NCBI GenBank assembly: GCA_021513695.1 | Contig: CP084166.1 | Location: forward strand, 416,001 to 480,000 | Direction: 5' to 3' | Length of the DNA: 64,000 nucleotides | Source: Candidatus Heimdallarchaeum aukensis | GTDB taxonomy: Archaea > Asgardarchaeota > Heimdallarchaeia > Heimdallarchaeales > Heimdallarchaeaceae | Shown here: in pieces, positions 15,395 through 48,505 of the stretch | Position numbering within the stretch: the first letter of the stretch is position 1 | Layout: every line of letters starts with the position of its first letter | The notes under the pieces: model-generated | Database searches by the model: none | What the model was told of the DNA's origin: nothing | What the model saw: the letters and a program-made list of their open reading frames with translations, nothing else | Position numbers and translations under genes: made by a program

Positions 15395-17251
15395 TTAATA
15401 TTTCTTTCCACAGATATCAATTTCTTCAAAAGTTTCCTTAACTTTATTTTTCTTTTGTTTTGTTCTGAAGATAATTTCAAATAAAACAATTGAAAAAATG
15501 AAAATCATCCAAACTATACTTTTACTGATAATTTCTTTTCTTCTAGTAATACCTATGTTTGAATTAGGATCTAATGGGTCAAAATCATTCATTACTTCTT
15601 CATAATCAGTATATGAATCTCCATCTGTATCAGGATCGTTGGGATCAGTATTATAAAATTTTACTTCTTCAAAATCGTCCAATCCATCAAAGTCACTATC
15701 TATGCGTAAAGGATTAGTATGGTAAATAAATAATTCTTCATAATCATCTAGTAAGTCACCATCTGTATCACGATTTAGGGGACTAGTATTGTAATTATTT
15801 ACTTCTTCTCCGTCTTTTAATCCATCATTATCAGAATCACTATCATTGGGGTCAGTATCGTACATGTAAATTTCAAGATTATCAGACAAACCATCCAAAT
15901 CTGAATCTTTTAATGTAGGATTTGTTCCATAAACAAATACTTCTACTCCATCATCTATTCCATCATTATCTGAATCATCATTTGTAGGATCTGTTCCATA
16001 AGCGTATATTTCATCACCATCTAATAATCCATCAAAGTCAGTATCATTATTCCTTGGATCAGTATTGTTTTCAAATTCGTGAATATTATATAATTCATCA
16101 TTATCAAAGTCAACATAGGCATCAATTGGATTAGCAACATCTAAACCATAGTAATATTCCCAGTAATTTGTCATTCCATCGCTGTCTAAATCTCCATCAG
16201 CATCGCTTGGATCATCAGGATCTAATCCTACACTAACTTCCCAGTAATCAGGCATTTTATCGTTATCACTATCTCTTACTAGTTTTATGATAAAAGCATC
16301 AATATATCCTTCCAAAGTGGAATTTAAAGGGCTTTTTAAAAGAAGATCATTACTCTCTGTACTCCCTACTATGTAGATAGAACCATCACTATCCACTGCT
16401 ATATCTCTACCTACATCTTCTTCTCTTCCACCAAAATATGTGCTAAAAACTAAATTTGTTCCACTTCTGTTTAACATAGAAACAAAAATATCGGAATAAT
16501 AAGTAGGATTTCTTTCTTCAATTGCATTTTTAATCGGAAAATCATTGCTCCATGTTCCACCTGTTAAATAGACGTTTTGATCATTATCTACCGTTATTGA
16601 CAAACAAGTATCATTTGATGAACCACCTAAAAATGTACTATAGATTATATTATCAGCTGTTGAACTTATTTTTGTTAAAAATATGTTAGAATATCCATTT
16701 AGTGTGTCATCAAAGGCATTTTTTGTTGGAAAGTCAGTACTATTTGTAACACCAGTGATATATACATAACCTTCACTATCAATAGTTATTCCTCTGGCAT
16801 AATCATTATACTTTCCCCCTAAATAAGTGCTAAAGATTAACCCATTTCCTGTAGAGTTAATATAGGATAAATAAACATCAAAAAAGCTTCCACCACCATA
16901 AGTAGAATTAAAAGCATTTACAGTCGGAAAATCATCACTTCTTGTAGATCCAGTAATGAAAATAGAACCATTAGAGAAAACTTTACCTTTAGCAAAGTAT
17001 TCAGCATCACTTCCCCCTATTATTGTGGTGAAAATAGGTTCAAGAGTTTCTCCATCAAGTTTAGTAACAAAAGCATCATAATCATCATCTGAAATATTTC
17101 CAAAAGCAAAGTTGTTGAATAAAGAAGTGCTCATAGTATCTCCAAAAATGTATATATTTCCATCATTTCCTATTTCTATCTTGCGTCCATAATCAAAAAT
17201 ATCCCCGCTTAAATAAGAACTAAAATCTACTAAATAAGGATCAATAATCAA
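15395..17251 (-). CDS. Surface protein, C-terminal segment: SBBP-type beta-propeller repeats plus thrombospondin type-3-like Ca-binding repeats and a C-terminal TM anchor. It is in frame with 17336..18067, so the two are probably one gene.
   Basis: Recurring blocks of the form G-x-I/D-I-D-S-x-G-x-hydrophobic-Y-I-x-G-x-T-x-S-x-D-F-P (SBBP beta-propeller repeat). Multiple D-x-D-x-D-G-L-x-D-x-x-E units follow, then a hydrophobic helix and a basic tail. The annotated start is a TTG that simply continues the upstream reading frame. Confidence 0.6.
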   Translation of the reverse strand: MIIDPYLVDFSSYLSGDIFDYGRKIEIGNDGNIYIFGDTMSTSLFNNFAFGNISDDDYDAFVTKLDGETLEPIFTTIIGGSDAEYFAKGKVFSNGSIFITGSTRSDDFPTVNAFNSTYGGGSFFDVYLSYINSTGNGLIFSTYLGGKYNDYARGITIDSEGYVYITGVTNSTDFPTKNAFDDTLNGYSNIFLTKISSTADNIIYSTFLGGSSNDTCLSITVDNDQNVYLTGGTWSNDFPIKNAIEERNPTYYSDIFVSMLNRSGTNLVFSTYFGGREEDVGRDIAVDSDGSIYIVGSTESNDLLLKSPLNSTLEGYIDAFIIKLVRDSDNDKMPDYWEVSVGLDPDDPSDADGDLDSDGMTNYWEYYYGLDVANPIDAYVDFDNDELYNIHEFENNTDPRNNDTDFDGLLDGDEIYAYGTDPTNDDSDNDGIDDGVEVFVYGTNPTLKDSDLDGLSDNLEIYMYDTDPNDSDSDNDGLKDGEEVNNYNTSPLNRDTDGDLLDDYEELFIYHTNPLRIDSDFDGLDDFEEVKFYNTDPNDPDTDGDSYTDYEEVMNDFDPLDPNSNIGITRRKEIISKSIVWMIFIFSIVLFEIIFRTKQKKNKVKETFEEIDICGKKY

Positions 17252-17335
17252 TTTTTTAGCTGTATCATATTGTTCAATATTAAAAATATAACAGTTGTCA
17301 TCAAGAGTAAAATAAGCGGGGATAATTTTTCCTTC

Positions 17336-18067
17336 TTAAAAAACTTTTAAGTTTCTATCATTAAAAATTCTATATTCTGTATTTCCGATTCTTGAGATTC
17401 CAACTATATTAGTTTCATCTTCTTGTTTTAAGTAAAACTTTGAATCTGATGATAGTTGAACCTTAATAACTGAAGGATCAGCGTTTGGTTCAACAATAAA
17501 TTCGTATTTCAGAAATGAACCTGTAAAATAGTATCTTAAAGATATTCCGGGGTATATATCTTCATATATTATTTCTTGATAACAGCTTATTTGAGTAATT
17601 GCTTTATCTTTGTAAAAAAAGTTAGAATAGTAATTTGCTAATGCTTTTGCCTGTGGTACAACGATATTTGAATCAGGAAAAGAGACATTAATTAAGAAAA
17701 ATTTAGTATTTTCTTCTTTATTCGGTTTAAGATTCTGAATAAAGTAGACCTTAGATTCTCCAAAGTAAACATTTGTTAAAGGAGATTGAGCATAATAAAA
17801 AACTGTCTTGTCAAATATATGCCCTTTATTTTTCATAAAAAAGTATTTAGAATTGTAATCACTGACATAGTTCTCTTCAATTTCGCCGGAAACACTGTAA
17901 AAATTAATTTTTGCTTTATTTTGCTGTTGTGAATATTTTATGCTGTAAGAGCCAACTAAAGTGTTATTTTTGACATAAAATCCAGATAAACTGCTCACAC
18001 TTACAAGAAAGATTAAAAACAAACAAACAATAAATGAAACATTTCCTTTGCTTTGATTTTCATTCAT
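17336..18067 (-). CDS. N-terminal segment (signal peptide plus N-terminal domain) of the same surface protein. It is terminated by an in-frame TAA at 17336..17338.
   Basis: 243 aa with a signal/TM N-terminus. It ends YPGISLRYY...LKYEFIVEPNADPSVIKVQL, typical of the N-terminal domain of SBBP-repeat proteins. The same frame continues in sense after the TAA (RGKIIPAYFTLDDNCYIFNIEQYDTAKKLIIDPYL...). Confidence 0.55.
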   Translation of the reverse strand: MNENQSKGNVSFIVCLFLIFLVSVSSLSGFYVKNNTLVGSYSIKYSQQQNKAKINFYSVSGEIEENYVSDYNSKYFFMKNKGHIFDKTVFYYAQSPLTNVYFGESKVYFIQNLKPNKEENTKFFLINVSFPDSNIVVPQAKALANYYSNFFYKDKAITQISCYQEIIYEDIYPGISLRYYFTGSFLKYEFIVEPNADPSVIKVQLSSDSKFYLKQEDETNIVGISRIGNTEYRIFNDRNLKVF

Positions 18068-18351
18068 TTTTCTAAATATTTTAGGTTGAAAAATATTATA
18101 TAAATATTATCAAATGATTTTTGGATAGTTTTTTATTTAAAGTTTAAAATAAAGCTTGAATAGATTTTAGAATAAAAAGAAAAATTTTGCCAATTATATC
18201 TTTTTTGTAAGATTTAATCTAAAAAAGATAAATTCAAATTATAAGAAATAAGACAGATAATATTAGGCTAATTATCAGTTTTTCTATTAAATTCAAAATA
18301 GTGTTCTAGAAATCTAAAAAAATAGAATGAGGAAAACAGTAAAAAGCTATA

Positions 18352-18457
18352 GTACTTCCGCAATAAGTTGACTGATTTCTATAGGTTAAAATTATAGGAG
18401 TTCATACTATCATTGGTGTGTTCTCAATTCATACTTTTTGAGATAATTCGGAAGTAC
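18352..18457. mobile_element. MITE-like element, copy A: 106 bp with 9-bp terminal inverted repeats GTACTTCCG / CGGAAGTAC, flanked by TA on both sides
   Basis: Read directly. It is the reverse complement of 28437..28542 with only 2 mismatches. TA lies at 18350..18351 and 18458..18459. It is intergenic, between divergent genes. Confidence 0.6.
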
Positions 18458-18504
18458 TAAAGCTAATAACAATTTTTTTAAGTATAATTATTAAATAAAA
18501 CACA

Positions 18505-19326
18505 ATGGACAATTCTAATGATTCAATCAAGGAAATGAAACTTTTTTCAAATCAAACAAGAAGGGATTTGTTAAAACTTCTTGGAGAATCAGGAGGATTG
18601 TCTTTTACTAACATTAAAGAAGAATTGAGACTTACAGATGGAAGATTATATTTCCATCTAAAGAAATTAGAAGGCTATATTGAGAAAGATACACAAAATA
18701 ATTACAAATTAACTTTAGATGGTAAGAAAATCTATGATTCTTTGTTTTTTAGTCATATTAAAGAACAGAAAAAATTTGAAGAAGATGTTTCATCGAAATC
18801 TCTTAACAAAATCTTTCCAGAAGACATTGTTTATTATTTAATTGGAACAAAAACGAGAAGTATGATAGAATTAAATATGTTATTGTTAATTTTATGTTGG
18901 TTTTTTGCAGTTACAGACAGTTACTTTAGTTCTATTGAAACAATAGTTTTGGGGGGAGCTATAGTCAATTTTGTCATTAACCTTATCCATTGGTATTTTT
19001 ACTGTTTACTCATTTATATAATATTAAAAATTGCAAAGAAAGGAATAGACTTTGTAGAATTAACTATTGTTACAATAATAGGAATTGCCCCATATTTCCT
19101 CTATTTACTAATAAAAGGGATTTTGCAATTATTGAATATAGAAATAATTGGTTTGATAAATATTGTTCTGGTAATTTTATTTGTTATTTGTAAGATATGG
19201 TCTTCACTAATAATAGCACAAGGATTAACAGTCGTCTCAAAGATCCATCCATCACAATCTTTACTAGCTGTAATTTCATTAACAATTATTGATTATTTGT
19301 ATTTGTTTATTACTTTATCAATGTAA
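18505..19326 (+). CDS. Membrane-tethered winged-helix transcription regulator (ArsR/PadR-like N-terminal wHTH plus C-terminal multi-TM domain)
   Basis: 273 aa. N-terminal TRRDLLKLLGESGGLSFTNIKEEL...GRLYFHLKKLEGYIEK is a wHTH. The C-terminal half has four to five hydrophobic helices. Confidence 0.5.
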   Translation: MDNSNDSIKEMKLFSNQTRRDLLKLLGESGGLSFTNIKEELRLTDGRLYFHLKKLEGYIEKDTQNNYKLTLDGKKIYDSLFFSHIKEQKKFEEDVSSKSLNKIFPEDIVYYLIGTKTRSMIELNMLLLILCWFFAVTDSYFSSIETIVLGGAIVNFVINLIHWYFYCLLIYIILKIAKKGIDFVELTIVTIIGIAPYFLYLLIKGILQLLNIEIIGLINIVLVILFVICKIWSSLIIAQGLTVVSKIHPSQSLLAVISLTIIDYLYLFITLSM

Positions 19327-22174: not shown

Positions 22175-22990
22175 ATGAGATGGGATAGAATTTGGGCTTT
22201 AGCTAAAAAAGATATTAAAGATTATACTAAATCTAAATATGTTTTCTTTACAATTATCTTCATGCCATTATTTCTTTCTCTTATAATGGCAATATCAGGT
22301 GTTTTACCACTAGTTAGTATTCCTGAAGATGAGGTCGATGAAGATGATTTTGCTTCTATCGATAATATTGTAGCAAATGTGGTAAAAGGCTGGAATGACT
22401 TTAATCCCAAACAGAAAATGCTAATTATTAGTGCTTATGGGATGCTATTCTTTGTTGCTCTCATACCAATAATTATACCGTCAATAATAGCTTCGGAAAC
22501 AATAGTAGGCGAAAAAGAAAGGAAAACAATGGAAGGATTAATTGCGTCTCCTCTCAGCGAAGGAGAGATAGTAGTAGGAAAAATAGTTTCTGCTTTTCTA
22601 CCCTCAATTATAGGAACAATTGTTGCTTCAATTGTTTATGCGGTAAGTGTTGATATTATGCTATATCGTGAGATAGGAAGACTTCTCTTTCCAGATCCTT
22701 TGATTATTTTATTTACATTCGTTATCAGCCCCATAACAACTATCCTTTGCGTAGAACTGATGATAATGATTTCAACAAAGATGTCAAGTGTAAGAGATGC
22801 CTATCAAATTGGTTCGCTTGTAGTTATGCCTGTGTTCTTCTTTGTTTTTCTTCAGATGGTGACCTTCTTCTTTTCAAGTTTATTATCAATACTAGCAGGA
22901 ACTACAATACTTATCCTATCTACAATTTTCTTCTACAAGCTTGCAGAGAATATTTTTGACAGAGAAAAAGCATTGGTAAAATTAGTTTGA
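22175..22990 (+). CDS. ABC-2 type transporter permease
   Basis: 271 aa with six predicted TM helices. It lies 0 nt after the ABC ATPase stop, so it is translationally coupled. Confidence 0.7.
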   Translation: MRWDRIWALAKKDIKDYTKSKYVFFTIIFMPLFLSLIMAISGVLPLVSIPEDEVDEDDFASIDNIVANVVKGWNDFNPKQKMLIISAYGMLFFVALIPIIIPSIIASETIVGEKERKTMEGLIASPLSEGEIVVGKIVSAFLPSIIGTIVASIVYAVSVDIMLYREIGRLLFPDPLIILFTFVISPITTILCVELMIMISTKMSSVRDAYQIGSLVVMPVFFFVFLQMVTFFFSSLLSILAGTTILILSTIFFYKLAENIFDREKALVKLV

Positions 22991-22994
22991 TTTT

Positions 22995-23063
22995 CTTTTC
23001 TCTTTTTTATTTTTATTTTCAGAAAAATTTTTATTAAATATATAAGGATATAATTGAAGGGGT
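22995..23063 (+). promoter_or_regulatory. Conserved 5' region of the tandem surface-protein paralogs (putative BRE/TATA plus an AGGGG SD-like box before a TTG start)
   Basis: cagaaaaatttttattaaatatataaggatataattgaaggggtt TTG. An almost identical string precedes the downstream paralog at 25228..25302. Confidence 0.3.
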
Positions 23064-25118
23064 TTGAACAGAGCAAAAAAAATAGTACCTTTAGCTATAA
23101 TATTTGTTCAAATAATTCTTTTTACTAGCTTACAGTATAGTTCCGTCAATGCAGATGAGATTCAGTATAACGTAATTGGAATAAACATCAATTCCGATAG
23201 TGATTTTATTGATTTTGCAAGGACAGGAGCAGGAACTAAAGAAGATCCCTACATAATTTCAGGGTATCACTTTGAGTACTATGAAATTGGGATATTTATT
23301 TCACAAACAAGTAAATATGTCATAATAACTAACTGTTCTTTTTCTAACATCAAATATGAAGCAATAAGATTGTGGTCTGTCAAATCTGGAACAGTAAGAA
23401 TAGAAAACAATACGATTGTTAATGCAAAAGTGGGAATATTCCTATATGAAGCTCCAGATTGTACAATAATAAGTAATAAAATAATGAACTGTTCTGCTTT
23501 TGCAATTAAAGATGATTTTTCTAGAATAGGATCAAAAATTATGAACAATACACTTTATAACAACGAAGAAGGAATAACCATAAGTGAAACTAATTACACT
23601 CAAATACTGAATAATTACATAATTTACAGTAGAAATGTTGGCATTTATTTAATGGATACCACAAATGGAACAGAAATACATCATAACTTCTTCTTAAATG
23701 CTAACAAACCTGCTTTTACAACAGCTTGTAGTTATGGATATTATAATAATTGGACATCAAATTATTGGAGTGATTGGGATGGTTCAAGTCCATATAAAAT
23801 AGAGAGTAAATATGAACAAACTTTTGACACAAATCCTTTAAGTTTCGATGACTCTGATGGAGACAAAATAATCGATATTTTAGAACTTGTTATGGATATG
23901 AATCCAGAATCAACCGACAACGACTCTGATGAAATTTCAGATTATGATGAATTACTTATTTATGCAACAAACCCTAATACAATAGATACAGATGAAGATG
24001 GAATAACAGATTATGATGAAATATTTGTATATTTAACAAATCCGAATACACAAGATACAGATAAAGATGGAATAACAGATTATGATGAAGTATTTGTATA
24101 TCATACAGATCCGAATAAAAAAGACTCAGATGGTGATACCTTTTCAGATTATGAAGAAATATTACAGAAAACCAATCCTAGGAAAAGTTATAGTAATCCA
24201 ATTACAAAAAAATATTTGACAATCTTTCTTCCAATTTTTTCAGGTTTATTTGGTGTTGCATTTCTTTCAACTAGATATTACTCTAACTCAAAGAAAAACA
24301 AAATTAAGGTAATCTTTGACACATGGAATGAATTTTTCAATGAATGGGAAAAAATAATTGAACAGATAAATAAATCAGGAAATTCAGAAATAGAAGAAAT
24401 AATCTTTGAGGTAAATCAGTTAAAAGAAAAAAAAGTAGATGAGCTTGAATTTGTCAAAAAAATAGTAGCTCAATCAAAGAAACTACTTATAGAACATATG
24501 AAATTCAACGTTGAATTAAGTTTACAAAAATACAAAAAGCAAATAGAAATTTTTGTTAACCTACAGAGTAATTTGATTGATAAAGCTTTAATTACCCTTA
24601 ATCAAATAACAGAAAATACAATTCTTAATGCTGTAAAAGATTATTTGTGGATGAGATTCGTTTATTTGTATAGTACTACTAGCAAATCAGAAGCAATTAC
24701 CACTATTGAAGATGTGAGTGGAGATGCACTTTTTAACAAGTTCATTAAATTTTATAGATCTTTAGATTATGAGGAAAGACTGAAAAAAGAAATATCCAAC
24801 TTAGCAGAAGAAGTAAAATTTCAGATAAATCAAGCAAAAAAATATGAAATTGAGCTTATAGAAAGTTCAATAAACTCTATTATTGATTCTCTATTTGATA
24901 AATTTAATAAACTTGAGATCGATATAAATATTCTTCAAGAAAAAATCAAGGATATAAACATCGCTCAGATTAAACTAGATAATCCTTCCGAAACTTTTGT
25001 TAGAATCGAAAATATAGTAAAAGAAGAAGTGAACATACAAATGAAAGATAAAGAAGAGTCTATTCAGTCTAATCTTTTCTCTAATCAAGAAAAAGGGTTA
25101 AAGAATCCGCGTGAATAG
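23064..25118 (+). CDS. Receptor-like type I membrane protein: signal peptide, right-handed parallel beta-helix, TSP3-like Ca-binding repeats, a single TM helix, and a cytoplasmic coiled-coil domain. TTG start.
   Basis: 684 aa. Beta-helix rungs (NNTIVNAKVGIFLY, CTIISNKIMNCSAF, NNTLYNNEEGITIS). Four DTDxDGITDYDE repeats. A TM helix (IFLPIFSGLFGVAFLS), then a 300-aa K/E-rich heptad region. Confidence 0.7.
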   Translation: MNRAKKIVPLAIIFVQIILFTSLQYSSVNADEIQYNVIGININSDSDFIDFARTGAGTKEDPYIISGYHFEYYEIGIFISQTSKYVIITNCSFSNIKYEAIRLWSVKSGTVRIENNTIVNAKVGIFLYEAPDCTIISNKIMNCSAFAIKDDFSRIGSKIMNNTLYNNEEGITISETNYTQILNNYIIYSRNVGIYLMDTTNGTEIHHNFFLNANKPAFTTACSYGYYNNWTSNYWSDWDGSSPYKIESKYEQTFDTNPLSFDDSDGDKIIDILELVMDMNPESTDNDSDEISDYDELLIYATNPNTIDTDEDGITDYDEIFVYLTNPNTQDTDKDGITDYDEVFVYHTDPNKKDSDGDTFSDYEEILQKTNPRKSYSNPITKKYLTIFLPIFSGLFGVAFLSTRYYSNSKKNKIKVIFDTWNEFFNEWEKIIEQINKSGNSEIEEIIFEVNQLKEKKVDELEFVKKIVAQSKKLLIEHMKFNVELSLQKYKKQIEIFVNLQSNLIDKALITLNQITENTILNAVKDYLWMRFVYLYSTTSKSEAITTIEDVSGDALFNKFIKFYRSLDYEERLKKEISNLAEEVKFQINQAKKYEIELIESSINSIIDSLFDKFNKLEIDINILQEKIKDINIAQIKLDNPSETFVRIENIVKEEVNIQMKDKEESIQSNLFSNQEKGLKNPRE

Positions 25119-25227
25119 CTTTATTTCTCTTTTATAGTTGATACTTTTATTACAATGAACTTACTCACAATCTCTCTCCAAAAATATGAAATATAATCTT
25201 TCTTCCTAATGAATCAAACATTATTTA

Positions 25228-25302
25228 TAATCTAATTTCACTTTTCTTTTTTCAATTTTAGAAAAATTTTTATTAAAGGTACAAAGATATGATTGAAGGG
25301 GT
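25228..25302 (+). promoter_or_regulatory. Duplicated 5' region of the second paralog (same BRE/TATA-like and SD-like boxes, TTG start)
   Basis: tttcaattttagaaaaatttttattaaaggtacaaagatatgattgaaggggtt TTG. This matches 22995..23063. Confidence 0.3.
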
Positions 25303-27288
25303 TTGAAAATAAAAAAGTCAAAATCTAATCTGTTAGTTTTGTTTTTAATATTGTTCTTTACTAGTTCTACCTATTTTCATATAAAAGCAGATGATAATAC
25401 AAAATCAGGTTTTGCAATTCAAATCTCTTCTAACGATGAATTTTCTTTATTTTCAAAAGCAGGTAACGGAACTAAAGAAAATCCCTATGTTATCTCAGGA
25501 TATATCATTGAACACTTCGAAGCAGGTATTTTTATATCTCAAACAACCAAATTTTTCGTTATTACTAATTGTACTTTTCTTAATCTAAAATATGAAGCCA
25601 TACGAATAATGACAGTAGATGTTGGTAATGTTAGAATAGAAAATAATACGATTATTAATACAAAGTTTGGAATTTATATATATCAAGCTCCAAAAAGTAT
25701 TATTGTAAATAACAAAATCGTTAATTGCACTGTATCAGGAATAAGAGACGAATTTTCAGGAATAGGTTCTAAAATTGAAAACAACACTCTTTACAACAAT
25801 GAAGAAGCTATTACAATTTATTCAACAAATTATACTCAAATATTAAATAATTATATAATCAAAAGTCGGAAAGCTGGCATATTTCTATTGTGGAAACCAA
25901 ATGGAACAGAAATACATTATAACTTTATTCTAAACTCAGTAAAACCTTATATTGCAACTGCTCACAACGAAGGATTCAATAATAATTGGACATCAAATTA
26001 TTGGAATGACTGGAATGGAACAGGAGATTATCAAATAAGTAGCATTTATGAAACAACATTTGATAAAAATCCTTTGAGTTTTAATGACACTGATGGAGAT
26101 AAAATAATTGATATTTTGGAACTTGTAATGAATACAGATCCTTATGTGGTAGATAGCGACAATGACGGAATTGATGACTATAATGAATTGCTTAATTATG
26201 CAACAAACCCTAATGCCCAAGACAGTGATGGAGATGGAATATCTGATTATGACGAAATAATTGTATATACAACAAATCCCAATGCACAAGACACTGATGG
26301 AGATGGAATAACAGATTATGATGAAGTATTTGTTTATGGAACTGATGCAAAGAAACGAGATACTGATGGCGATACTTTTTCTGATTATGAAGAAATATTA
26401 ATGAAAACTAACCCTAAAAAAAGTTACAGTAATCCTATTATTAGAAGATATCTAACCATCTTAATTCCTACTTTTTCAGGAGTACTTGTTATTGCAGCTT
26501 TTTCAACTAGATACTATACCAACTCAAGGAGAAACAAAATTAAGGTGATTTTTGAAACATGGAATGAATTTTTCACTGAGTGGGAGAAAATAATTGAGCA
26601 GATAAACAATACAAAAAATTCAGAAGTTGAAGAAATAATATTTGAGGTAAAGGAACTTAAAAATAAGAAAATTGACGAACTTGAGCTTGTAAAGAAAATA
26701 ATCAGTCAAGCTAAAAAATTACTTATCAATCATATGAAGTTCAATGTTGAATTAAGCTTACAAAGATATAAAAAGCAAGCTGAAATTGTAATTAATCTAC
26801 AGAATAACTTAATTAGCCAAGCATTAACTGCTCTTAATCAAATAACAAAGAATACAATACTAAACGCTGTAAAAGATTACTTGTGGATGAGATTTGTTTA
26901 TCTATATAGCACAACAGAAAAATCTGAAGCCATAACTACTATTGAAGATATAAGTGGAGACACTCTTTTTAACAAGTTTGTCAAATTTTACAAATCATTA
27001 GATTATGAAGAGAGATTGAAAGAAGAAGTTGCTCATTTGGCAGAAGAAATCAAATATCAAATAAGAAAAGCCAAAGATTATGAAATTGATCTTTTAGAGA
27101 GTTCAATAAATTCAATTATAGACTCTTTACTTGATAAGTTTAACAAGCTTGAAGTTGATATTAATTTTCTTGAAGAAAAAATAAAAGACATTAGTGTTGA
27201 ACAGTCCAAGATCGATAATCCAAAAGATGCCTTCTTAAAAATAGAAAAAATAGTTAAAGAAGAAGTGAAAGAACAAAAAAGCAATTAA
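25303..27288 (+). CDS. Tandem paralog of 23064..25118 with the same architecture: beta-helix, TSP3-like repeats, TM helix, cytoplasmic coiled coil. TTG start.
   Basis: 661 aa, collinear with and similar to the upstream gene along its whole length (eyeball estimate roughly 60-65% identity). Confidence 0.7.
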   Translation: MKIKKSKSNLLVLFLILFFTSSTYFHIKADDNTKSGFAIQISSNDEFSLFSKAGNGTKENPYVISGYIIEHFEAGIFISQTTKFFVITNCTFLNLKYEAIRIMTVDVGNVRIENNTIINTKFGIYIYQAPKSIIVNNKIVNCTVSGIRDEFSGIGSKIENNTLYNNEEAITIYSTNYTQILNNYIIKSRKAGIFLLWKPNGTEIHYNFILNSVKPYIATAHNEGFNNNWTSNYWNDWNGTGDYQISSIYETTFDKNPLSFNDTDGDKIIDILELVMNTDPYVVDSDNDGIDDYNELLNYATNPNAQDSDGDGISDYDEIIVYTTNPNAQDTDGDGITDYDEVFVYGTDAKKRDTDGDTFSDYEEILMKTNPKKSYSNPIIRRYLTILIPTFSGVLVIAAFSTRYYTNSRRNKIKVIFETWNEFFTEWEKIIEQINNTKNSEVEEIIFEVKELKNKKIDELELVKKIISQAKKLLINHMKFNVELSLQRYKKQAEIVINLQNNLISQALTALNQITKNTILNAVKDYLWMRFVYLYSTTEKSEAITTIEDISGDTLFNKFVKFYKSLDYEERLKEEVAHLAEEIKYQIRKAKDYEIDLLESSINSIIDSLLDKFNKLEVDINFLEEKIKDISVEQSKIDNPKDAFLKIEKIVKEEVKEQKSN

Positions 27289-27295
27289 AAAGTTT

Positions 27296-28411
27296 CTAAT
27301 GTATCCTTAGATTAGGTGGAATAAGGTTTAGAACTCCACAGGCTGGACATTCTATTACTCCATTTTCGTTCATGTCTTTTAGATCTAAGAGTTCTCCACA
27401 ATTCCCTGCACAATACATGGGAATTAATTCTGGTCCTTCCTTTACTCCTTCAATTGCACTATTAATCTTTGGAATAACTTCTTTGTAGAGCCTTTCGTGT
27501 ATTTGATCCACTTCATAACCGTAGACCCATATAGCTATATTTCCACTTTTTTCTTTTCCTGTGATTATAAGTTCAACTATAGAAATATCTTTTTTTCCGA
27601 TTTGGGAGACAAACATCAGGTTTCCAATGAAATTTTCACTTGTATCCATTACTATCTGTTCGTTCACTGTTTTATAAGAATCAAATAAGGTTTTTAAAAC
27701 TTTAAAAGCGACTTTTGGCTTTGCATGGAATTCTATTGATCTTCCTAATGAATCGAGCTTGTTGTTCTTTAATTCCATTAAAGCTTCATAATAACCATTT
27801 TCTATTCTTTCTTTAAGTATTAAAGCTCGTTCCTCTCTTTTTTTGTAAGCTTCATAGATTAGTTCTGTAAATTCAGCTTGTTTTTTCTTAACTATTGTAA
27901 ATTTCGTTCCTTCATGTATCTTTACAGGGGGAAAAGGCAAGCTACCTATTATTTGAGACTGAACAATATATGGTTCTCTTAAAGTTGAAGGAACAATAAA
28001 GCTTAACGAAGTACCGTAATCGATTATTTTTCCAATGTTTCCCTCTCTTACTATTGAACTCCAATCTCCTCCAGGAATTGTAACTGTATCTGGAACAGCC
28101 AAAAACACAACATCTGCTCTCGGGGGAGCAGAAGATATTAAAGCTGTTACTTCTTCTCCATCACCTATTTCTCCTGCAATTCTTTTGTCCAAGTATATTA
28201 AAGGATTTTTTCCTTTTTTTACTATCTCATTGATTTCAGCAAAAACTGAACTAGTCCTTCCAATTGTAGAAGAAAAGAGAAGAGCATATTTTTCATCATC
28301 TGCAAGTTCTAATTCAGTATCTTCTGGTAAAACTATACCTATACCGTTTCTAAAAACTAGTTTAACTTTACATGTAACCGTTTTCACATTCCTCTCTAAG
28401 AAAATCCTCAC
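27296..28411 (-). CDS. Hypothetical protein with a C-terminal C4 zinc ribbon
   Basis: 371 aa. The C-terminus is CAGNCGELL...ECPACGVLNL (C-x3-C...C-x2-C). No other motif recognised. Confidence 0.4.
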   Translation of the reverse strand: MRIFLERNVKTVTCKVKLVFRNGIGIVLPEDTELELADDEKYALLFSSTIGRTSSVFAEINEIVKKGKNPLIYLDKRIAGEIGDGEEVTALISSAPPRADVVFLAVPDTVTIPGGDWSSIVREGNIGKIIDYGTSLSFIVPSTLREPYIVQSQIIGSLPFPPVKIHEGTKFTIVKKKQAEFTELIYEAYKKREERALILKERIENGYYEALMELKNNKLDSLGRSIEFHAKPKVAFKVLKTLFDSYKTVNEQIVMDTSENFIGNLMFVSQIGKKDISIVELIITGKEKSGNIAIWVYGYEVDQIHERLYKEVIPKINSAIEGVKEGPELIPMYCAGNCGELLDLKDMNENGVIECPACGVLNLIPPNLRIH

Positions 28412-28436
28412 ATTTATATTTTCCTATAAGAAAATA

Positions 28437-28542
28437 GTACTTCCGAATTATCTCAAAAAGTATGAATTGAGAACACGCCAATGATAGTATGAACTCCTAT
28501 AATTTTAACCTATAGAAATCGGTCAACTTATTGCGGAAGTAC
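28437..28542. mobile_element. MITE-like element, copy B, in inverted orientation relative to copy A. Same 9-bp TIRs and TA flanks.
   Basis: 104 of 106 positions match the reverse complement of 18352..18457. TA lies at 28435..28436 and 28543..28544. It is intergenic. Confidence 0.6.
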
Positions 28543-28752
28543 TAAAGAAAAAGAAAAAATAAAATTCTAAAAAGGTAGTTGGGGAAGAAATTCCAGAAAA
28601 TTAGCTAAAGTCCCATATAAGCCAAATAAAGAACCTAGAATTGAATAAACAAGTAAAGCATATTTTTGAAACCCAGAAATATTTATGCCTAACAAGGCTT
28701 CAAATTGTTTTTTATAGAATTTAACAGGAATATTAACAACAAAAAGTTGTTT

Positions 28753-45535: not shown

Positions 45536-48505
45536 ATGAAAATAAAATCCATGAAATATAAAAAATATTTTTTCTTTGTACTTTTCACGGTCTTAGTTGT
45601 ATTCGCTTATCCACGAAGCTTTTACAACGAAGTTGAAGCAGGATATACACAAACAACTCCTATCAACATATATTCTGATTCAGACTTAGAAAGTTATTCA
45701 TTTCCTGGTACAGGAACTGAAGCTGACCCTTATATTATAGAAAATTATAACATCACAGTTACTAGTGGTTATGCTATTTCAATTAGAGCAACAACAAAAT
45801 ATGTCATTATAAGAAATAACTATATTATAGGGTCTGATACTGGCAATGGAATGTACATTTTTAGTGTTGCACCAAACACTGTTCATATAATAAATAACAC
45901 CGTTGTCAATGCTTATACTGGAATTTATGTAAATACTGAAGGACAAATGATAATAGAGAATAATACTGTAACAGGAGGAGAGTCTGCCTATTATTTCTCT
46001 TCAACTGGAAATATTAATTTTACTAACAATAAGGCAATCAATCCTAAAAAATATGGTTTAAGAGCTTATAATTTAAATAACTTCAGAATGGCTAATAGTA
46101 CTTTAATAGGCGCTGGAGTAGGTTTTTCTACAAGTAGTACATCCTTTTATGATAATTACTATTTTGATAACAATTCAATTAATAACAAGCCTTTGATGGT
46201 AGTTTATTCTTCATCAGATCTTGTTTTTGACAAAAATCAAAATGGTCAGATATTAATTATAGACAGCACGAACATCACAGTCAAAAATTATGTCTCAAGC
46301 GAAAATACTTTTGGAGTTTATTCCTACTATTCTGATAAAATAACAATAGAGGATAGTTTTTTTTCAAAAGCAGTTTCTTCAATTAAAGCAGAATATTCTT
46401 CAAATATTGAAATAAAGAATGTAAAAATTAGTAACACATACGAGTATGGAATGAATATTCGCAATATAGATGGAATTTCGATTGAAGATACTATAGTTGA
46501 AGATTCTAATAAAGGGATATATGCAAGAGGAATAAATAATTTAGAAATAACAAATACTACTTCCACTAATCATGAAAATGATGGCTTGTACCTGTGGTAT
46601 GTAAATAATGCAAATATTTCTAGTTCGTTTTTCGCAAATTGTAAGAACGGATTAGTTGCAAGAAGTTCAACTAACATAAGATTAGAAGAAAACTCAGCTT
46701 CAAACTGTAGTTATACAAGTTTTACTCTAATTTATCTTGAGAATGTAACAGTAAAAGATAACTTAATGGAATCTGGGATAAAACTTAACCATTACAACGT
46801 TGAATGGAGCTACGAATTCAGTAATAATACAATAAAAGGAAAACCTTTAGGTGTTTTTTATAATAAAACAGGGTTAACTATTGACTCAACTTATTCGCAA
46901 TTAATACTAGTAAATTGTACAGACTTTATAATCAATAATGCGTATTTTTCTCAAGTAGTAAGAGGAATTTACATTCTTTACGGAGAAAATATTTCTATAA
47001 ATAATATCTCGATGTACAACGTCTTTGAAGGTGGACTATTAGTAGAGTATTCCAAGAAAATAAGCATTCAAGATTTAAATGTAAATGGAGTAATAGGTAA
47101 TGAAGCTTATGGTATTTACACTTATAATGTAACTTCGGTGTTTCTTAATCATTCTATTTTTACACTGTGCGGAGATTATCCTTTTTATGGAGAAGAGATT
47201 GCAGATGCTATAATTTCTTATAATATATTTAATAATAGCACTAATAATGTGTTTTACATTTACAATGGCTTTAATCTTTCTATTTTTGGAAATGATTTTT
47301 TGTTTAATGATTATGCACTTTATGTTGAATTTTCAAACGAAATAGAATTCTACAACCTTGAATTAGAAATGGGAAATTGTTACTCTGAATGGAACGGTTC
47401 AACTAGATATCCTATTGAAACAGATAGTGGCTACATTTATGATGAATTTCCATTAAATGATACTGACAGAGATAAGCTTAACGACAGTTTAGAAGTGTAT
47501 AGTTACAATACTGACCCATTTCTTGCAGATACAGATTACGATATACTCAGTGATTATGACGAAATAATGAACTATGGAACTGACCCAAACTCGGTAGATT
47601 CAGATAATGATAATATGCCAGACAAATGGGAAATAGAAAATAATCTTAACCCAATCGAAGATGACTCCTCAGAAGATCCTGACGATGATGATTTGTCTAA
47701 CATAGAAGAATATAATTCACACACCAATCCCAATTCTGCTGATACAGATTCTGATGGTATGCCTGATGGTTGGGAAGTGGAAAATGAATTAAATCCTTTG
47801 ATAGATGATGCTGATGAAGACCCAGATAATGATGATCTAACTAATTTAGAAGAATACTCTAATAATACTGACCCTAACTCTGCAGATACAGATTCTGACG
47901 GTATGCCTGACAAATGGGAGGTAGATAATAATCTTGACCCAACTAAAGATGATGCTGATGAAGACCCAGATAATGATGATCTAACTAATTTAGAAGAATA
48001 CACTAACAACACAGACCCTAACACCAATGACACAGATGGTGATGGTATGTTTGATGGTTGGGAAGTAGATAATAGTCTTGATCCTCTAACTGATGATGCT
48101 GATGAAGATCCTGATAATGATGGACTAACAAATCTAGAAGAACATACAAACAATACTAACCCAAATGATGAAGATACGGATTCAGATGGTATGCCTGATG
48201 GATGGGAAGTGGAAAATGGATTAAATCCTCTGATAGATGATGCTGAGGAAGACCCAGATAATGATAGATTAACTAACATACAAGAATACTTGAATAACAC
48301 AGATCCCAACAATCCAGATACTGATGGAGATGGATATTCAGACTCTGAAGAAATAGAGAAAGGCTCTAACCCTACCGATGCTACAGATAAACCTCTTAAT
48401 TTGGGATTGATTCTTGGTTTATCCATTGGTATTCCAACTGTTCTTATTGCAGTCTTCTTATTTATAATGAAGAAAAAAGGTTTACTCTTCTTTAAGAAGA
48501 AGTAA
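45536..48505 (+). CDS. Large surface protein: N-terminal signal/anchor, right-handed parallel beta-helix region, six tandem 41-42-aa TSP3-like Ca-binding repeats, and a C-terminal TM anchor
   Basis: 989 aa. Many beta-helix rungs (NNTVVNAYTGIYVN, NNTVTGGESAYYF, and so on). The repeats read DTDSDGMPDGWEVENxLNPLxDDADEDPDNDDLTNLEEY. The C-terminus is a hydrophobic helix plus KKKG. Confidence 0.7.
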   Translation: MKIKSMKYKKYFFFVLFTVLVVFAYPRSFYNEVEAGYTQTTPINIYSDSDLESYSFPGTGTEADPYIIENYNITVTSGYAISIRATTKYVIIRNNYIIGSDTGNGMYIFSVAPNTVHIINNTVVNAYTGIYVNTEGQMIIENNTVTGGESAYYFSSTGNINFTNNKAINPKKYGLRAYNLNNFRMANSTLIGAGVGFSTSSTSFYDNYYFDNNSINNKPLMVVYSSSDLVFDKNQNGQILIIDSTNITVKNYVSSENTFGVYSYYSDKITIEDSFFSKAVSSIKAEYSSNIEIKNVKISNTYEYGMNIRNIDGISIEDTIVEDSNKGIYARGINNLEITNTTSTNHENDGLYLWYVNNANISSSFFANCKNGLVARSSTNIRLEENSASNCSYTSFTLIYLENVTVKDNLMESGIKLNHYNVEWSYEFSNNTIKGKPLGVFYNKTGLTIDSTYSQLILVNCTDFIINNAYFSQVVRGIYILYGENISINNISMYNVFEGGLLVEYSKKISIQDLNVNGVIGNEAYGIYTYNVTSVFLNHSIFTLCGDYPFYGEEIADAIISYNIFNNSTNNVFYIYNGFNLSIFGNDFLFNDYALYVEFSNEIEFYNLELEMGNCYSEWNGSTRYPIETDSGYIYDEFPLNDTDRDKLNDSLEVYSYNTDPFLADTDYDILSDYDEIMNYGTDPNSVDSDNDNMPDKWEIENNLNPIEDDSSEDPDDDDLSNIEEYNSHTNPNSADTDSDGMPDGWEVENELNPLIDDADEDPDNDDLTNLEEYSNNTDPNSADTDSDGMPDKWEVDNNLDPTKDDADEDPDNDDLTNLEEYTNNTDPNTNDTDGDGMFDGWEVDNSLDPLTDDADEDPDNDGLTNLEEHTNNTNPNDEDTDSDGMPDGWEVENGLNPLIDDAEEDPDNDRLTNIQEYLNNTDPNNPDTDGDGYSDSEEIEKGSNPTDATDKPLNLGLILGLSIGIPTVLIAVFLFIMKKKGLLFFKKK
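47597..48360 (+). repeat. In-frame tandem DNA repeats of about 123-126 bp (six copies) encoding TSP3-like units
   Basis: Repeated strings such as gatgatgctgatgaagacccagataatgatgatctaactaatttagaagaata recur with near-identity. Confidence 0.6.

What the first reader, a model, noticed from the sequence alone, without database searches (positions are those of the whole stretch)
18352..18457. MITE-like 106-bp element with 9-bp terminal inverted repeats and TA flanks (copy A)
The sequence GTACTTCCG...CGGAAGTAC bounds a 106-bp unit that recurs, inverted and 98% identical, at 28437..28542. Both copies are immediately flanked by TA on each side, the target-site duplication typical of IS630/Tc1-mariner transposition (Stowaway-like MITEs). 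Both copies sit in divergent promoter regions, where such elements can supply promoters, hairpin terminators or sRNAs. No transposase is encoded in the window, so mobilisation would be in trans.
Basis: seen in the sequence. Interest (0 to 1): 0.6.

Follow-up and report, generated by a model that had tools for sequence, protein, structure and literature searches.

The report
Miniature transposon beside archaeal gene promoters
The two 110-bp repeats are real copies of a small non-coding jumping element (a MITE) in a Heimdall (Asgard) archaeon; it derives from an ISH3-like insertion sequence, not the mariner-like type first proposed, and the family lands almost exactly at the upstream edge of gene promoters.

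Summary
Two inverted copies, 108/110 identical, lie at 18350-18459 and 28435-28544. It is a MITE, but the "TA flanks" are the outermost bases of an 11-bp terminal inverted repeat (TAGTACTTCCG). The real target duplication is 6-7 bp (AAGCTA; AAGAAAA).

- **Mobility:** related strains carry empty sites for both copies. At least 16 distinct insertions of the same element occur in Ca. Heimdallarchaeum endolithica and in metagenomes, and 12 of 15 scorable ones have 6-bp duplications.
- **Parent:** a 1217-1220-bp insertion sequence with identical ends. It encodes a 381-aa DDE transposase whose best family match is ISH3, below the curated cut-off. The MITE equals the first 90 bp plus the last 20 bp of that IS.
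- **RNA:** no Rfam hit and no covariation.
- **Unexpected:** insertions are phased to promoters. In 13 of 25 elements one end lies 40-50 nt upstream of a start codon, against 7-8% of random intergenic positions. A BRE/TATA-like AAA-N2-TTTTTAA sits at +11 to +22 from the element end. Both window copies fit, at 45 and 47 nt.

Whether this phasing reflects targeting or selection is unresolved. The element is a new member of a known kind; the promoter phasing is the interesting part.

The parts
18350..18459 (+). MITE copy A, 110 bp. As written on the + strand it runs from the transposase-distal (R) end at 18350 to the transposase-proximal (L) end at 18459. The transposase-sense strand is therefore the - strand.
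   Evidence: It aligns to IS positions 1-90 plus 1199-1218. The site is empty in L001.
18350..18360 (.). Terminal inverted repeat of copy A, R end: TAGTACTTCCG.
   Evidence: It is identical at the ends of the 1217-1220-bp IS copies.
18449..18459 (.). Terminal inverted repeat of copy A, L end: CGGAAGTACTA.
18344..18349 (.). Target-site duplication of copy A, left copy: AAGCTA.
   Evidence: Present once in the empty site of L001 and twice in the window.
18460..18465 (.). Target-site duplication of copy A, right copy: AAGCTA.
18466..18504 (+). Inferred core promoter of the winged-helix/membrane gene 18505-19326. It contains a TATA-like TTTTTTTAAGTATAA at 18473-18487, and the ATG at 18505 lies 45 nt from the element end. 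The promoter predates the insertion.
   Evidence: The same sequence is present in the empty site of L001. Phasing is shown. The promoter role is inferred from sequence only.
28435..28544 (-). MITE copy B, 110 bp, inverted relative to copy A. Its L end is at 28435 and its R end at 28544.
   Evidence: The site is empty in L135 and in the H. endolithica orthologous locus L133.
28428..28434 (.). Target-site duplication of copy B, left copy: AAGAAAA on the + strand.
28545..28551 (.). Target-site duplication of copy B, right copy: AAGAAAA.
28388..28427 (-). Inferred core promoter of gene 27296-28387/28411 (-), read on the - strand as ataggAAAATATAAAtgtg... The GTG start implied by the 363-aa length of the NCBI-annotated orthologue (28387) lies 47 nt from the element end.
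   Evidence: The sequence is conserved in the empty sites of L133 and L135. The 363-aa annotation is UJG41196.1. Phasing is shown. The promoter role is inferred.

Best explanation
The 110-bp unit is a non-autonomous DNA transposon (MITE) of Candidatus Heimdallarchaeum, an Asgard archaeon. The window matches Ca. H. aukensis or a near-identical strain. The element is an internal-deletion derivative of a 1217-1220-bp insertion sequence. It keeps the first ~90 bp, which include the remnant of the transposase start codon and eight codons, and the last ~20 bp.

It has no coding capacity. It is moved in trans by the IS-encoded 381-aa DDE transposase, which is ISH3-like within the IS4 superfamily and carries the motif Y-2-R-3-E-3-R. 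The transposase would recognise the shared 11-bp terminal inverted repeat TAGTACTTCCG plus a few subterminal bases. It makes a staggered cut that yields a 6-bp (occasionally 5 or 7 bp) A/T-rich target duplication.

Shown:
- repeat structure;
- target duplications;
- empty sites for both window copies;
- many independent insertions;
- the parent IS with identical ends;
- the transposase family affinity.

Inferred:
- trans-mobilisation;
- a cut-and-paste DDE mechanism.

Additional property of the family: insertions occur immediately upstream of archaeal core promoters. The duplication abuts a BRE-like AAA (+11 to +13) and a TATA-like T-run (+16 to +22). The start codon of a gene pointing away follows at about 45 nt. 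The core promoter is left intact, and anything further upstream is displaced by 116 bp. I consider active targeting of promoter DNA, or of the TBP/TFB-bound and bent promoter, more likely (about 0.65) than pure post-insertion selection.
For: - **Repeat and ends:**
- **Empty site for copy A:** it lies in a 99%-identical strain contig, and the filled site has gained 116 nt, i.e. 110 plus a 6-bp duplication.
- **Empty site for copy B:** seen in two related genomes.
- **Copy number:** Ten more come from metagenomes, all with different flanks.
- **Duplication length:** 6 bp in 12 of 15 scorable copies, 7 bp in 2 and 5 bp in 1.
- **Assembly behaviour:** short-read contigs of SRR15988954 break inside the element at three of the four element ends sampled (both ends of copy B and the L end of copy A), as expected for a dispersed repeat.
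- **Parent IS:** L031/L132, L130, L131 and L121 have identical 11-bp ends and 6-7-bp duplications.
- **Derivation:** the MITE aligns to IS positions 1-90 plus 1199-1218.
- **Transposase family:** Pfam DDE_Tnp_1 at E = 1e-9. The best NCBIfam hit is ISH3 at E = 5e-39, covering positions 2-298 of 298. The motif YCHRWGIETSYR matches the ISH3 signature described in PMC2266710. Distant homologues are named 'ISH3 family transposase'.
- **Distance to start codons:** 13 of 25 complete elements have an outward gene start 40-50 nt from one end, against 6.9% of random intergenic positions (p = 2e-9) and 8.0% of A/T-rich target positions.
- **Motif phasing:** aligned on the element end, A occurs at +11 to +13 in 13-14 of 17 ends, T at +16 to +20 in 10-13 of 17, and A at +21 to +22 in 12-13 of 17.
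- **Full-length IS copies:** two of the three H. endolithica copies clearly abut a BRE/TATA-like motif, and in the third the motif is shifted by 1-2 nt with the nearest called gene start 115 nt away.
- **Start of the gene next to copy B:** the H. aukensis orthologue in the same 90% cluster is annotated at 363 aa, which corresponds to the second GTG at 28387, the start used for copy B.
Against: - No transposase lies in the window, and I could not retrieve the H. aukensis copy of the IS. A mobilising enzyme in this genome therefore rests only on a named 342-aa H. aukensis member of the same 90% cluster.
- The closest IS ends are only 74-77% identical to the MITE interior. The direct parent was not found.
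- The transposase is below NCBIfam's curated ISH3 cut-off (134 versus 225 bits). The ends (TAGT, not CRGT) and the duplication length (6, not 4-5 bp) depart from the published ISH3 definition.
- For promoter phasing, the 40-50-nt window and the AAA/T motif were chosen after looking at the data.
- Gene starts come from my own ORF rule, not from mapped transcription starts.
- About a fifth of elements are not next to a recognisable promoter: L066 lies between convergent genes, and L124 and L025 lack a duplication.
- Selection cannot be excluded.
Confidence: 0.9

Rival explanations
1. The element would be a Stowaway-like MITE of the IS630/Tc1-mariner superfamily, with 9-bp inverted repeats, inserting at TA and duplicating it.
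For: Both window copies are preceded and followed by TA. The size and inverted repeats are compatible with that class.
Against: The TA is part of the repeat in 15 of 16 aligned window-type copies, the exception being a single T-to-G change at L123, and in every full-length IS copy. The empty site for copy A shows a 116-nt gain with an AAGCTA duplication, not the 108 nt expected for TA. Other copies have 6-bp duplications of unrelated sequence. The transposase that shares the ends is ISH3-like, and no IS630 model appears among its hits.
Confidence: 0.02
2. The unit would be a structured RNA gene, or a cis-regulatory leader, duplicated upstream of two genes. The terminal 'repeats' would form its closing stem.
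For: The + strand of copy A folds into an 11-bp closing stem plus three hairpins, at -33.6 kcal/mol and z = -5.5. In both window copies the same strand points towards the adjacent downstream gene.
Against: There is no Rfam match at gathering score, and only a chance-level hit (E = 0.57) at a permissive threshold. No tRNA or tmRNA was found. Without the terminal repeat the interior folds no better than marginally, with z = -2.05 and 8 of 200 shuffles as good. Across 16 copies there is no covariation (score 0.022 versus 0.023 in shuffles). Changes break pairs: pair 57-68 is unpaired in 13 of 16 copies and pair 28-50 in 6 of 16. Sister MITE subfamilies share the ends but have interiors with no BLASTN-detectable similarity. 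The interior is recognisably the 5' end of a transposase gene. Divergence among copies is low, so the power of the covariation test is limited.
Confidence: 0.03
3. The elements would insert more or less at random in A/T-rich DNA. The promoter-adjacent pattern would then be a survivor effect, because only insertions just upstream of the core promoter are harmless in a compact genome. This rivals only the targeting sub-claim, not the MITE identification.
For: The genome is compact, with about 14% of sequence non-ORF in the loci studied. Insertions inside genes or core promoters would be purged. A minority of copies are elsewhere, for example L066 between convergent genes.
Against: The position is fixed to within a few nt of the BRE/TATA-like motif. 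This holds even where hundreds of apparently free intergenic bases are available on the other side: 282 nt for copy A, 208 nt for copy B and 578 nt for L046. Selection alone should tolerate insertions anywhere further upstream. Sites carrying the crude local motif are common (828 in 28 kb of intergenic DNA), yet only 7.4% of them lie 40-50 nt from a gene start, against 52% of elements.
Confidence: 0.3
4. The two copies would be a remnant of a local segmental inversion or duplication, that is, the two ends of a rearranged 10-kb segment, rather than a mobile element.
For: The two copies are inverted and 9,975 bp apart.
Against: Each copy has its own direct target duplication. Each has an independent empty site in related genomes with otherwise collinear flanks. 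The same 110-bp unit occurs at many unrelated loci in another species.
Confidence: 0.01

Closest known systems
ISH3 family insertion sequences (archaeal; IS4-related 'emerging family' of De Palmenaer, Siguier & Mahillon 2008, PMC2266710) and their MITE derivatives
   Same: The parent IS has a single-ORF DDE transposase whose best profile match is ISH3 over the full model length. It carries the Y-(2)-R-(3)-E-(3)-R motif described for ISH3. Its length of about 1.2 kb is at the lower edge of the family range. Target duplications are short, about half a helical turn, and are 5 bp in the sister lineage CAZHRF01. The host is archaeal.
   Different: The score is below the curated cut-off (134 versus 225 bits). 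The termini are TAGTAC..., not CRGT. The duplication is 6 bp in the Heimdallarchaeum copies. The length of 1217-1220 bp is just under the published 1225-1500 bp. The host phylum (Asgard) is not among those listed for the family in 2008. No promoter-phased insertion is described for ISH3 in the papers read here.
Sulfolobus MITEs SM1-SM4 and other archaeal MITEs (reviewed in PMC10969869)
   Same: These are also short, non-coding, multicopy elements bounded by inverted repeats in archaeal genomes. They are presumed to be mobilised in trans by resident IS transposases, and most are intergenic.
   Different: The host and sequence family differ. In the present case the parent IS, the deletion structure and empty sites for both window copies are all documented. 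A fixed position relative to BRE/TATA is not reported for those elements in the review read.
Stowaway / IS630-Tc1-mariner MITEs
   Same: Small size, terminal inverted repeats and non-autonomy.
   Different: They duplicate TA and are moved by IS630/mariner-type transposases. This element duplicates 6 bp of variable sequence and shares its ends with an ISH3-like IS.
Promoter- or transcription-factor-guided integration in eukaryotes (yeast Ty3 at Pol III start sites through TFIIIB, which contains TBP and a TFB homologue; fission yeast Tf1 at Pol II promoters). This comparison rests on my own knowledge and was not checked in papers here.
   Same: Insertions sit at a fixed, short distance from a TBP-dependent core promoter and leave the transcription unit intact.
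   Different: Those are LTR retrotransposons with integrases, and tethering to transcription factors has been shown experimentally. Here the element is a DDE DNA transposon/MITE in an archaeon, and only the positional statistics exist. No interaction has been shown.
Neisseria Correia elements (bacterial MITEs found immediately upstream of genes; PMC10969869)
   Same: A MITE family with predominant locations just upstream of genes.
   Different: Correia elements carry their own sigma-70 promoters and IHF sites and duplicate TA. In the present family the promoter is pre-existing host DNA, since it is present in the empty sites, and the element lies upstream of it.

Membership tests
MITE (miniature inverted-repeat transposable element) | Short length (tens to a few hundred bp) and no transposase gene | tested here: met
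   The element is 110 bp. Its only ORF remnant is MNSYNFNL*, the decayed start of the transposase gene.
MITE (miniature inverted-repeat transposable element) | Terminal inverted repeats | tested here: met
   An 11-bp perfect repeat, TAGTACTTCCG/CGGAAGTACTA, is present in 14 of 16 aligned window-type copies; L119 and L123 each have one substitution in one arm.
MITE (miniature inverted-repeat transposable element) | Direct target-site duplication of host DNA, differing between copies | tested here: met
   Duplications are 6 bp in 12 of 15 scorable copies, and 7 or 5 bp in three. All sequences differ and are A/T-rich. Copy A has AAGCTA and copy B has AAGAAAA.
MITE (miniature inverted-repeat transposable element) | Multiple dispersed copies | tested here: met
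MITE (miniature inverted-repeat transposable element) | Insertion polymorphism (empty sites) | tested here: met
   Copy A is absent from L001, a strain about 99% identical in the flanks. Copy B is absent from L135 and L133.
MITE (miniature inverted-repeat transposable element) | An autonomous element with the same ends that can supply the transposase | tested here: met
   IS copies of 1217-1220 bp have identical 11-bp ends and 6-7-bp duplications. A 342-aa member of the same transposase cluster is recorded in Ca. H. aukensis. Actual mobilisation was not tested.
IS630 / Tc1-mariner derived (Stowaway-like) MITE | Insertion at TA with duplication of TA | tested here: not met
   The comparison of empty and filled sites shows a 6-bp duplication, and the TA belongs to the element.
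IS630 / Tc1-mariner derived (Stowaway-like) MITE | Ends shared with an IS630-family transposase gene | tested here: not met
   The only transposase found between these ends is ISH3-like. No IS630 model appears among its Pfam or NCBIfam hits.
ISH3 family (for the parent IS) | Transposase matches the family profile above the curated threshold (NF033541) | tested here: inconclusive
   ISH3 is the best hit, with E = 5.4e-39 and model positions 2-298 of 298. The score of 134 bits is below the cut-off of 225. The next families (IS4, IS1634) are far weaker.
ISH3 family (for the parent IS) | Catalytic signature Y-(2)-R-(3)-E-(3)-R (PMC2266710) | tested here: met
   The sequence YCHRWGIETSYRLLK is present in the 381-aa protein. 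A K at E+7 is also present.
ISH3 family (for the parent IS) | Length of 1225-1500 bp | tested here: not met
   The copies are 1217-1220 bp, 5-8 bp short of the published range.
ISH3 family (for the parent IS) | Conserved termini CRGT | tested here: not met
   The termini are TAGT(AC...), matching three of the four positions.
ISH3 family (for the parent IS) | Direct repeats of 4-5 bp | tested here: inconclusive
   Repeats are 6 (to 7) bp in the Heimdallarchaeum copies. They are 5 bp in most elements of the sister lineage CAZHRF01 that share the same ends.
Known structured RNA family (Rfam) | Match to a covariance model at gathering score | tested here: not met
   There were no matches in the whole window. 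The only permissive hit is SNORD19 at E = 0.57, lying mainly in the left flank (18322-18359) and overlapping only the first 10 nt of the element.

The most novel reading that the evidence does not exclude
The ISH3-like transposase of Heimdallarchaeum, and the MITEs it mobilises, would actively target functional archaeal promoters. It would integrate at the upstream edge of the BRE by recognising either the TBP/TFB-bound, bent promoter complex or its DNA shape. That would be a prokaryotic DNA-transposon counterpart of transcription-factor-guided integration such as Ty3/TFIIIB, found in the archaeal lineage closest to eukaryotes. Each insertion would uncouple a core promoter from its upstream regulatory DNA.
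Probability: 0.35. Interest if true: 0.65.

Novelty: new member of a known kind. Interest (0 to 1): 0.4.

Why it matters
As a MITE, the element is ordinary mobile DNA. It does correct the family assignment and documents recent transposition, through insertion polymorphism, in Heimdallarchaeum. The genome paper for that genus reports abundant repeats and transposase families but does not mention MITEs.

The promoter phasing matters more. If it reflects real targeting, this IS/MITE family would be a natural probe for active promoters in an uncultured Asgard archaeon. It would also be a mechanism that repeatedly separates core promoters from upstream regulatory sites. Finally, it would give a tractable test of whether a DDE transposase can read the archaeal TBP/TFB pre-initiation complex.

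There is a practical point too. The element breaks short-read assemblies of these genomes directly upstream of genes.

Tried and rejected
- **Rfam and ARAGORN:** the Rfam gathering scan of the whole window and the ARAGORN scan found nothing. A permissive Rfam scan of 18300-18520 gave only a chance-level snoRNA hit.
- **RNA structure:** the attractive fold (z = -5.5) is mostly the terminal repeat. The interior alone gives z = -2.05, and 16 copies show no covariation.
- **Genome scan pattern:** my first pattern (TAGTACTTCCGMAWTAW) was too degenerate. Copy numbers per genome are therefore lower bounds, and H. aukensis was not among the 113 loci returned.
- **Orientation rule:** window-type copies have the transposase-proximal end towards the gene in 7 unambiguous cases against 1. 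That is not significant on its own (two-sided p about 0.07). The sister subfamily is 3 against 3, and the full-length IS copies face either way. I dropped the idea of a fixed orientation.
- **Simple local sequence preference:** I tested whether AAA at +11 to +13 plus a T-run explains the promoter association. Such sites are common, and only 7.4% lie 40-50 nt from a gene start, so it does not.
- **Generic promoter phasing:** aligning 39 window genes on their start codons showed no sharp BRE/TATA phasing. The phasing is to the promoter motif, not to the start codon in general.
- **Look-ups that failed:** the H. aukensis transposase (P0093) is not on record. The supplements of the large MITE census are not held, so I could not check whether this element was already catalogued there.
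- **Bacterial promoter/terminator scan:** not used, because the host is an archaeon.
Full report
**1. The observation**

The reported sequence is present. GTACTTCCG...CGGAAGTAC spans 18352-18457 and recurs inverted at 28437-28542 with 104/106 identity. Identity extends one dinucleotide further on each side, so the repeated unit is 110 nt: TAGTACTTCCG...CGGAAGTACTA at 18350-18459 and 28435-28544. The repeat finder reports it as the longest inverted pair in the window. The terminal 9-mer occurs exactly four times in 64 kb, only at these ends. This is not a chance feature.

**2. Host**

The window has about 30% G+C. The 273-aa protein encoded at 18505-19326 is identical to UJG41189.1 of Candidatus Heimdallarchaeum aukensis. 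The window is therefore from that Asgard archaeon or a near-identical strain.

**3. The element is mobile, and TA is not the target duplication**

A metagenome contig (L001) encodes the identical downstream protein. Its flanks are 99-99.7% identical to the window, yet it lacks copy A.

- L001 reads ...gtaaaaagcta|ataacaattttttt....
- The window has 116 extra nucleotides at that point: the 110-nt element followed by a second AAGCTA.
- A TA-duplicating element would add 108 nt, so that model fails.

Copy B is flanked by AAGAAAA on both sides. Its site is empty in a related Heimdallarchaeaceae genome (L135) and at the orthologous locus of Ca. H. endolithica (L133). In both, the T-rich tract runs directly into the conserved ataggaaaatataaatgtg.

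In short-read contigs of run SRR15988954 the assembly breaks inside the element at three of the four element ends sampled, namely both ends of copy B and the L end of copy A. This is typical of a dispersed repeat.

**4. Copies elsewhere**

It still returned at least six further copies (95-98% identical) from the closed genome of Ca. H. endolithica PR6. A metagenome scan added ten more.

All copies have different flanks. Of 15 scorable copies, 12 have a 6-bp duplication, two have 7 bp and one has 5 bp. All duplications are A/T-rich and of unrelated sequence.

An uncultured archaeon (CAZHRF01) carries nine elements of 107-109 nt. They have the same 11-bp ends, interiors with no BLASTN-detectable similarity to the window element, and mostly 5-bp duplications. 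The ends are therefore the conserved, functional part.

**5. The parent element**

In Ca. H. endolithica the same ends bound three 1217-1218-bp elements (L130, L131, L132 = L031). A 1220-bp element lies on a metagenome contig (L121). Those whose flanks are available (L130, L131, L132) have a 6-7-bp duplication. They encode a 381-aa protein with these features:

- Pfam DDE_Tnp_1 at E = 1e-9.
- Best NCBIfam match ISH3 at E = 5e-39, covering the whole model. The score is 134 bits against a curated cut-off of 225.
- The sequence YCHRWGIETSYRLLK, which is the Y-(2)-R-(3)-E-(3)-R signature given for ISH3 by De Palmenaer et al. (PMC2266710).
- Distant homologues named 'ISH3 family transposase'.

A global alignment shows that the MITE equals IS positions 1-90 joined to 1199-1218. 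It retains the transposase start codon and a decayed stretch of eight codons. Identity of the MITE to the IS ends found is only 74-77%, so the immediate parent was not recovered. A more IS-like MITE (L118, 83% identical to copy A) bridges the two.

A 1216-bp IS in another Heimdallarchaeota genome (L027) has the same 11-bp ends although its transposase is only 38% identical. No transposase lies in the window. A 342-aa member of the same 90% cluster is recorded for Ca. H. aukensis, but I could not fetch its locus.

**6. Not an RNA gene**

Rfam gives nothing at gathering score for the window, and only a chance-level hit near the element at a permissive threshold. ARAGORN finds nothing.

The good fold of the whole unit (-33.6 kcal/mol, z = -5.5) is mostly the terminal repeat. 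The interior alone gives z = -2.05.

On 16 aligned copies the predicted structure shows no covariation (0.022 against 0.023 in shuffles). Substitutions break pairs: pair 57-68 is unpaired in 13 of 16 copies and pair 28-50 in 6 of 16. Low divergence limits the power of this test, but nothing supports a selected structure.

**7. An unexpected regularity: insertion at the upstream edge of promoters**

While tabulating neighbours I found that one end of most elements lies a nearly constant distance upstream of a gene that points away from it.

| Element | Distance from element end to outward start codon (nt) |
|---|---|
| Copy A (window) | 45 |
| Copy B (window), counting to the GTG at 28387 | 47 |
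| L046 | 47 |
| L071 | 44 |
| L084 | 45 |
| L122 | 48 |
| L126 | 45 |
| L041 | 47 |
| L056 | 48 |
| L005 | 48 |
| L038 | 43 |
| L070 | 42 |
| L092 | 44 |

The 363-aa length of the NCBI-annotated orthologue, which implies the copy B start at 28387, is.

Thirteen of 25 complete elements have such a start within 40-50 nt under a fixed ORF rule. This compares with 6.9% of random intergenic positions in the same loci (binomial p = 2e-9) and 8.0% when the null is restricted to A/T-rich 6-mers.

I aligned 17 gene-facing ends on the element boundary. The duplication occupies +1 to +6.

| Position from element end | Base | Frequency |
|---|---|---|
| +11 to +13 | A | 13-14 of 17 |
| +16 to +20 | T | 10-13 of 17 |
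| +21 to +22 | A | 12-13 of 17 |

This looks like an archaeal BRE followed by a TATA box, about 25-30 nt before the start codon. That spacing is expected for leaderless or short-leader transcripts.

- Elements whose neighbouring start codon is 56-73 nt away mostly show the TATA-like motif at about the same offset from the element end. The phasing is therefore to the promoter motif rather than to the start codon.
- Consistently, 39 window genes aligned on their start codons show no comparably sharp profile.
- The promoter sequences are host DNA, because they are present in the empty sites.
- Of the three full-length IS copies in H. endolithica, two clearly abut such a motif. One does so through its right end (gene 67 nt away) and one through its left end (46 nt from the SUI1 start). 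In the third the motif is shifted by 1-2 nt, and the nearest called gene start is 115 nt away.
- A crude local-sequence preference does not explain the pattern. There are 828 intergenic positions with AAA at +11 to +13 and a T-run, and only 7.4% of them lie 40-50 nt from a gene start.

Caveats apply. The distance window and the motif were chosen after seeing the data, and the motif-enrichment p-values are circular for that reason. Gene starts are ORF-based apart from two that match NCBI annotation. No transcription start data exist. A few copies lie elsewhere (L066 between convergent genes), and L124 and L025 lack a duplication.

An apparent orientation preference did not hold up. Among window-type copies, the transposase-proximal end faces the gene in 7 unambiguous cases against 1. 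The sister subfamily is 3 against 3, and the IS copies face either way.

**8. Mechanism proposed**

Shown:
- The element is a deletion derivative of an ISH3-like IS.
- It has inserted independently many times.
- It makes 6-bp duplications.
- It is polymorphic among strains.

Inferred from knowledge of the family:
- The DDE transposase binds the 11-bp terminal repeats plus a few subterminal bases. The two ends share 14 of the first 17 positions.
- It excises the element and integrates it with a 6-bp stagger.

Inferred from the positional statistics:
- Integration is directed to the DNA immediately upstream of the BRE of functional promoters.
- The cue could be the shape of the T-rich/A-rich junction, the bend imposed by TBP/TFB, or a protein contact.
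- I rate targeting at about 0.65 against 0.3 for pure survivor bias. The main reason is that selection should equally tolerate insertions tens to hundreds of bases further upstream, where free DNA exists (282, 208 and 578 nt for copies A, B and L046).

The consequence for the two window genes is the same. One is a winged-helix/Yip1-like membrane protein and the other an uncharacterised 363-aa protein. In each case the core promoter is intact and everything upstream has been moved 116 bp away.

**9. Comparison with known elements**

The element works like any prokaryotic MITE. Archaeal examples are known in Sulfolobus, Halobacterium and others (PMC10969869). A census reports 18,091 archaeal MITEs (PMC11602168).

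Its parent is closest to ISH3 but fails several published family criteria: termini, duplication length, curated score and, marginally, length. I therefore call it ISH3-like rather than a member. It is not an IS630/Tc1-mariner derivative.

The Heimdallarchaeum genome paper describes abundant non-tandem repeats and 11 transposase/integrase families but does not mention MITEs or insertion sequences by name (PMC8813620). The 2026 archaeal IS survey does not treat MITEs in Heimdallarchaeum. I found no report of BRE/TATA-phased insertion of an archaeal IS or MITE in the searches made. The library is incomplete, so this absence is weak evidence.

**10. Verdict**

- The feature is real.
- It is a new member of a known kind and ordinary as mobile DNA.
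- One property is worth following up: promoter-edge insertion shared by the MITEs and their parent IS.

Noticed in passing
window 18460-18504 and 28385-28434; loci L005, L038, L041, L046, L056, L070, L071, L084, L092, L122, L126, L130, L131: The elements and their parent IS sit at a fixed offset upstream of BRE/TATA-like motifs. In 13 of 25 elements the start codon of an outward gene is 40-50 nt from one end, against 7-8% expected. This goes beyond the finding as given.
   Followed up: yes
L005, L025, L038, L039, L041, L056, L070, L092, L111 (uncultured archaeon CAZHRF01): At least two further MITE subfamilies of 107-109 nt carry the identical 11-bp ends TAGTACTTCCG. Their interiors show no BLASTN-detectable similarity to the window element, and most have 5-bp duplications.
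   Followed up: partly
L027 1744-2959 (Heimdallarchaeota CSMAG_1088): A 1216-bp IS has the same 11-bp ends although its transposase is only 38% identical to the H. endolithica one. The ends are conserved far more strongly than the protein.
   Followed up: no
window 15395-18067 (- strand): The ORFs 15395-17251 and 17336-18067 (DUF7948/SBBP/TSP3 repeats) form a single 1018-aa gene call in the related contig L001. In the window the gene appears interrupted, by a stop, a frameshift or a strain difference.
   Followed up: no
window 22978-27288: This is a tandem duplication of a gene of about 2.2 kb (23064-25118 and 25303-27288, 68-80% identical). It includes the upstream regions 22978-23077 and 25217-25316 (77% identical), which carry an AGAAAAATTTTTATTAAA promoter-like motif and a GAAGGGG ribosome-binding-like motif.
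   Followed up: no
window 15596-16046, 23893-24161, 26198-26397, 47488-48355, 58379-60754: There are long arrays of 69-nt and 144-nt in-frame repeats encoding thrombospondin-type-3-like D-x-D-x-D-G calcium-binding motifs in several large secreted proteins. They account for most direct-repeat families in the window.
   Followed up: no
L031 1523-2992 (= L132 2662-4131), H. endolithica: A 489-aa ORF on the minus strand ends with the stop codon TAG supplied by the last three bases of the IS terminal repeat. The IS may have truncated or re-terminated that gene.
   Followed up: no
L002, L128, L129 (Logan assembly of SRR15988954): Short-read contigs end inside the MITE at three of the four element ends sampled, namely both ends of copy B and the L end of copy A. 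This element fragments Heimdallarchaeum assemblies directly upstream of genes.
   Followed up: partly
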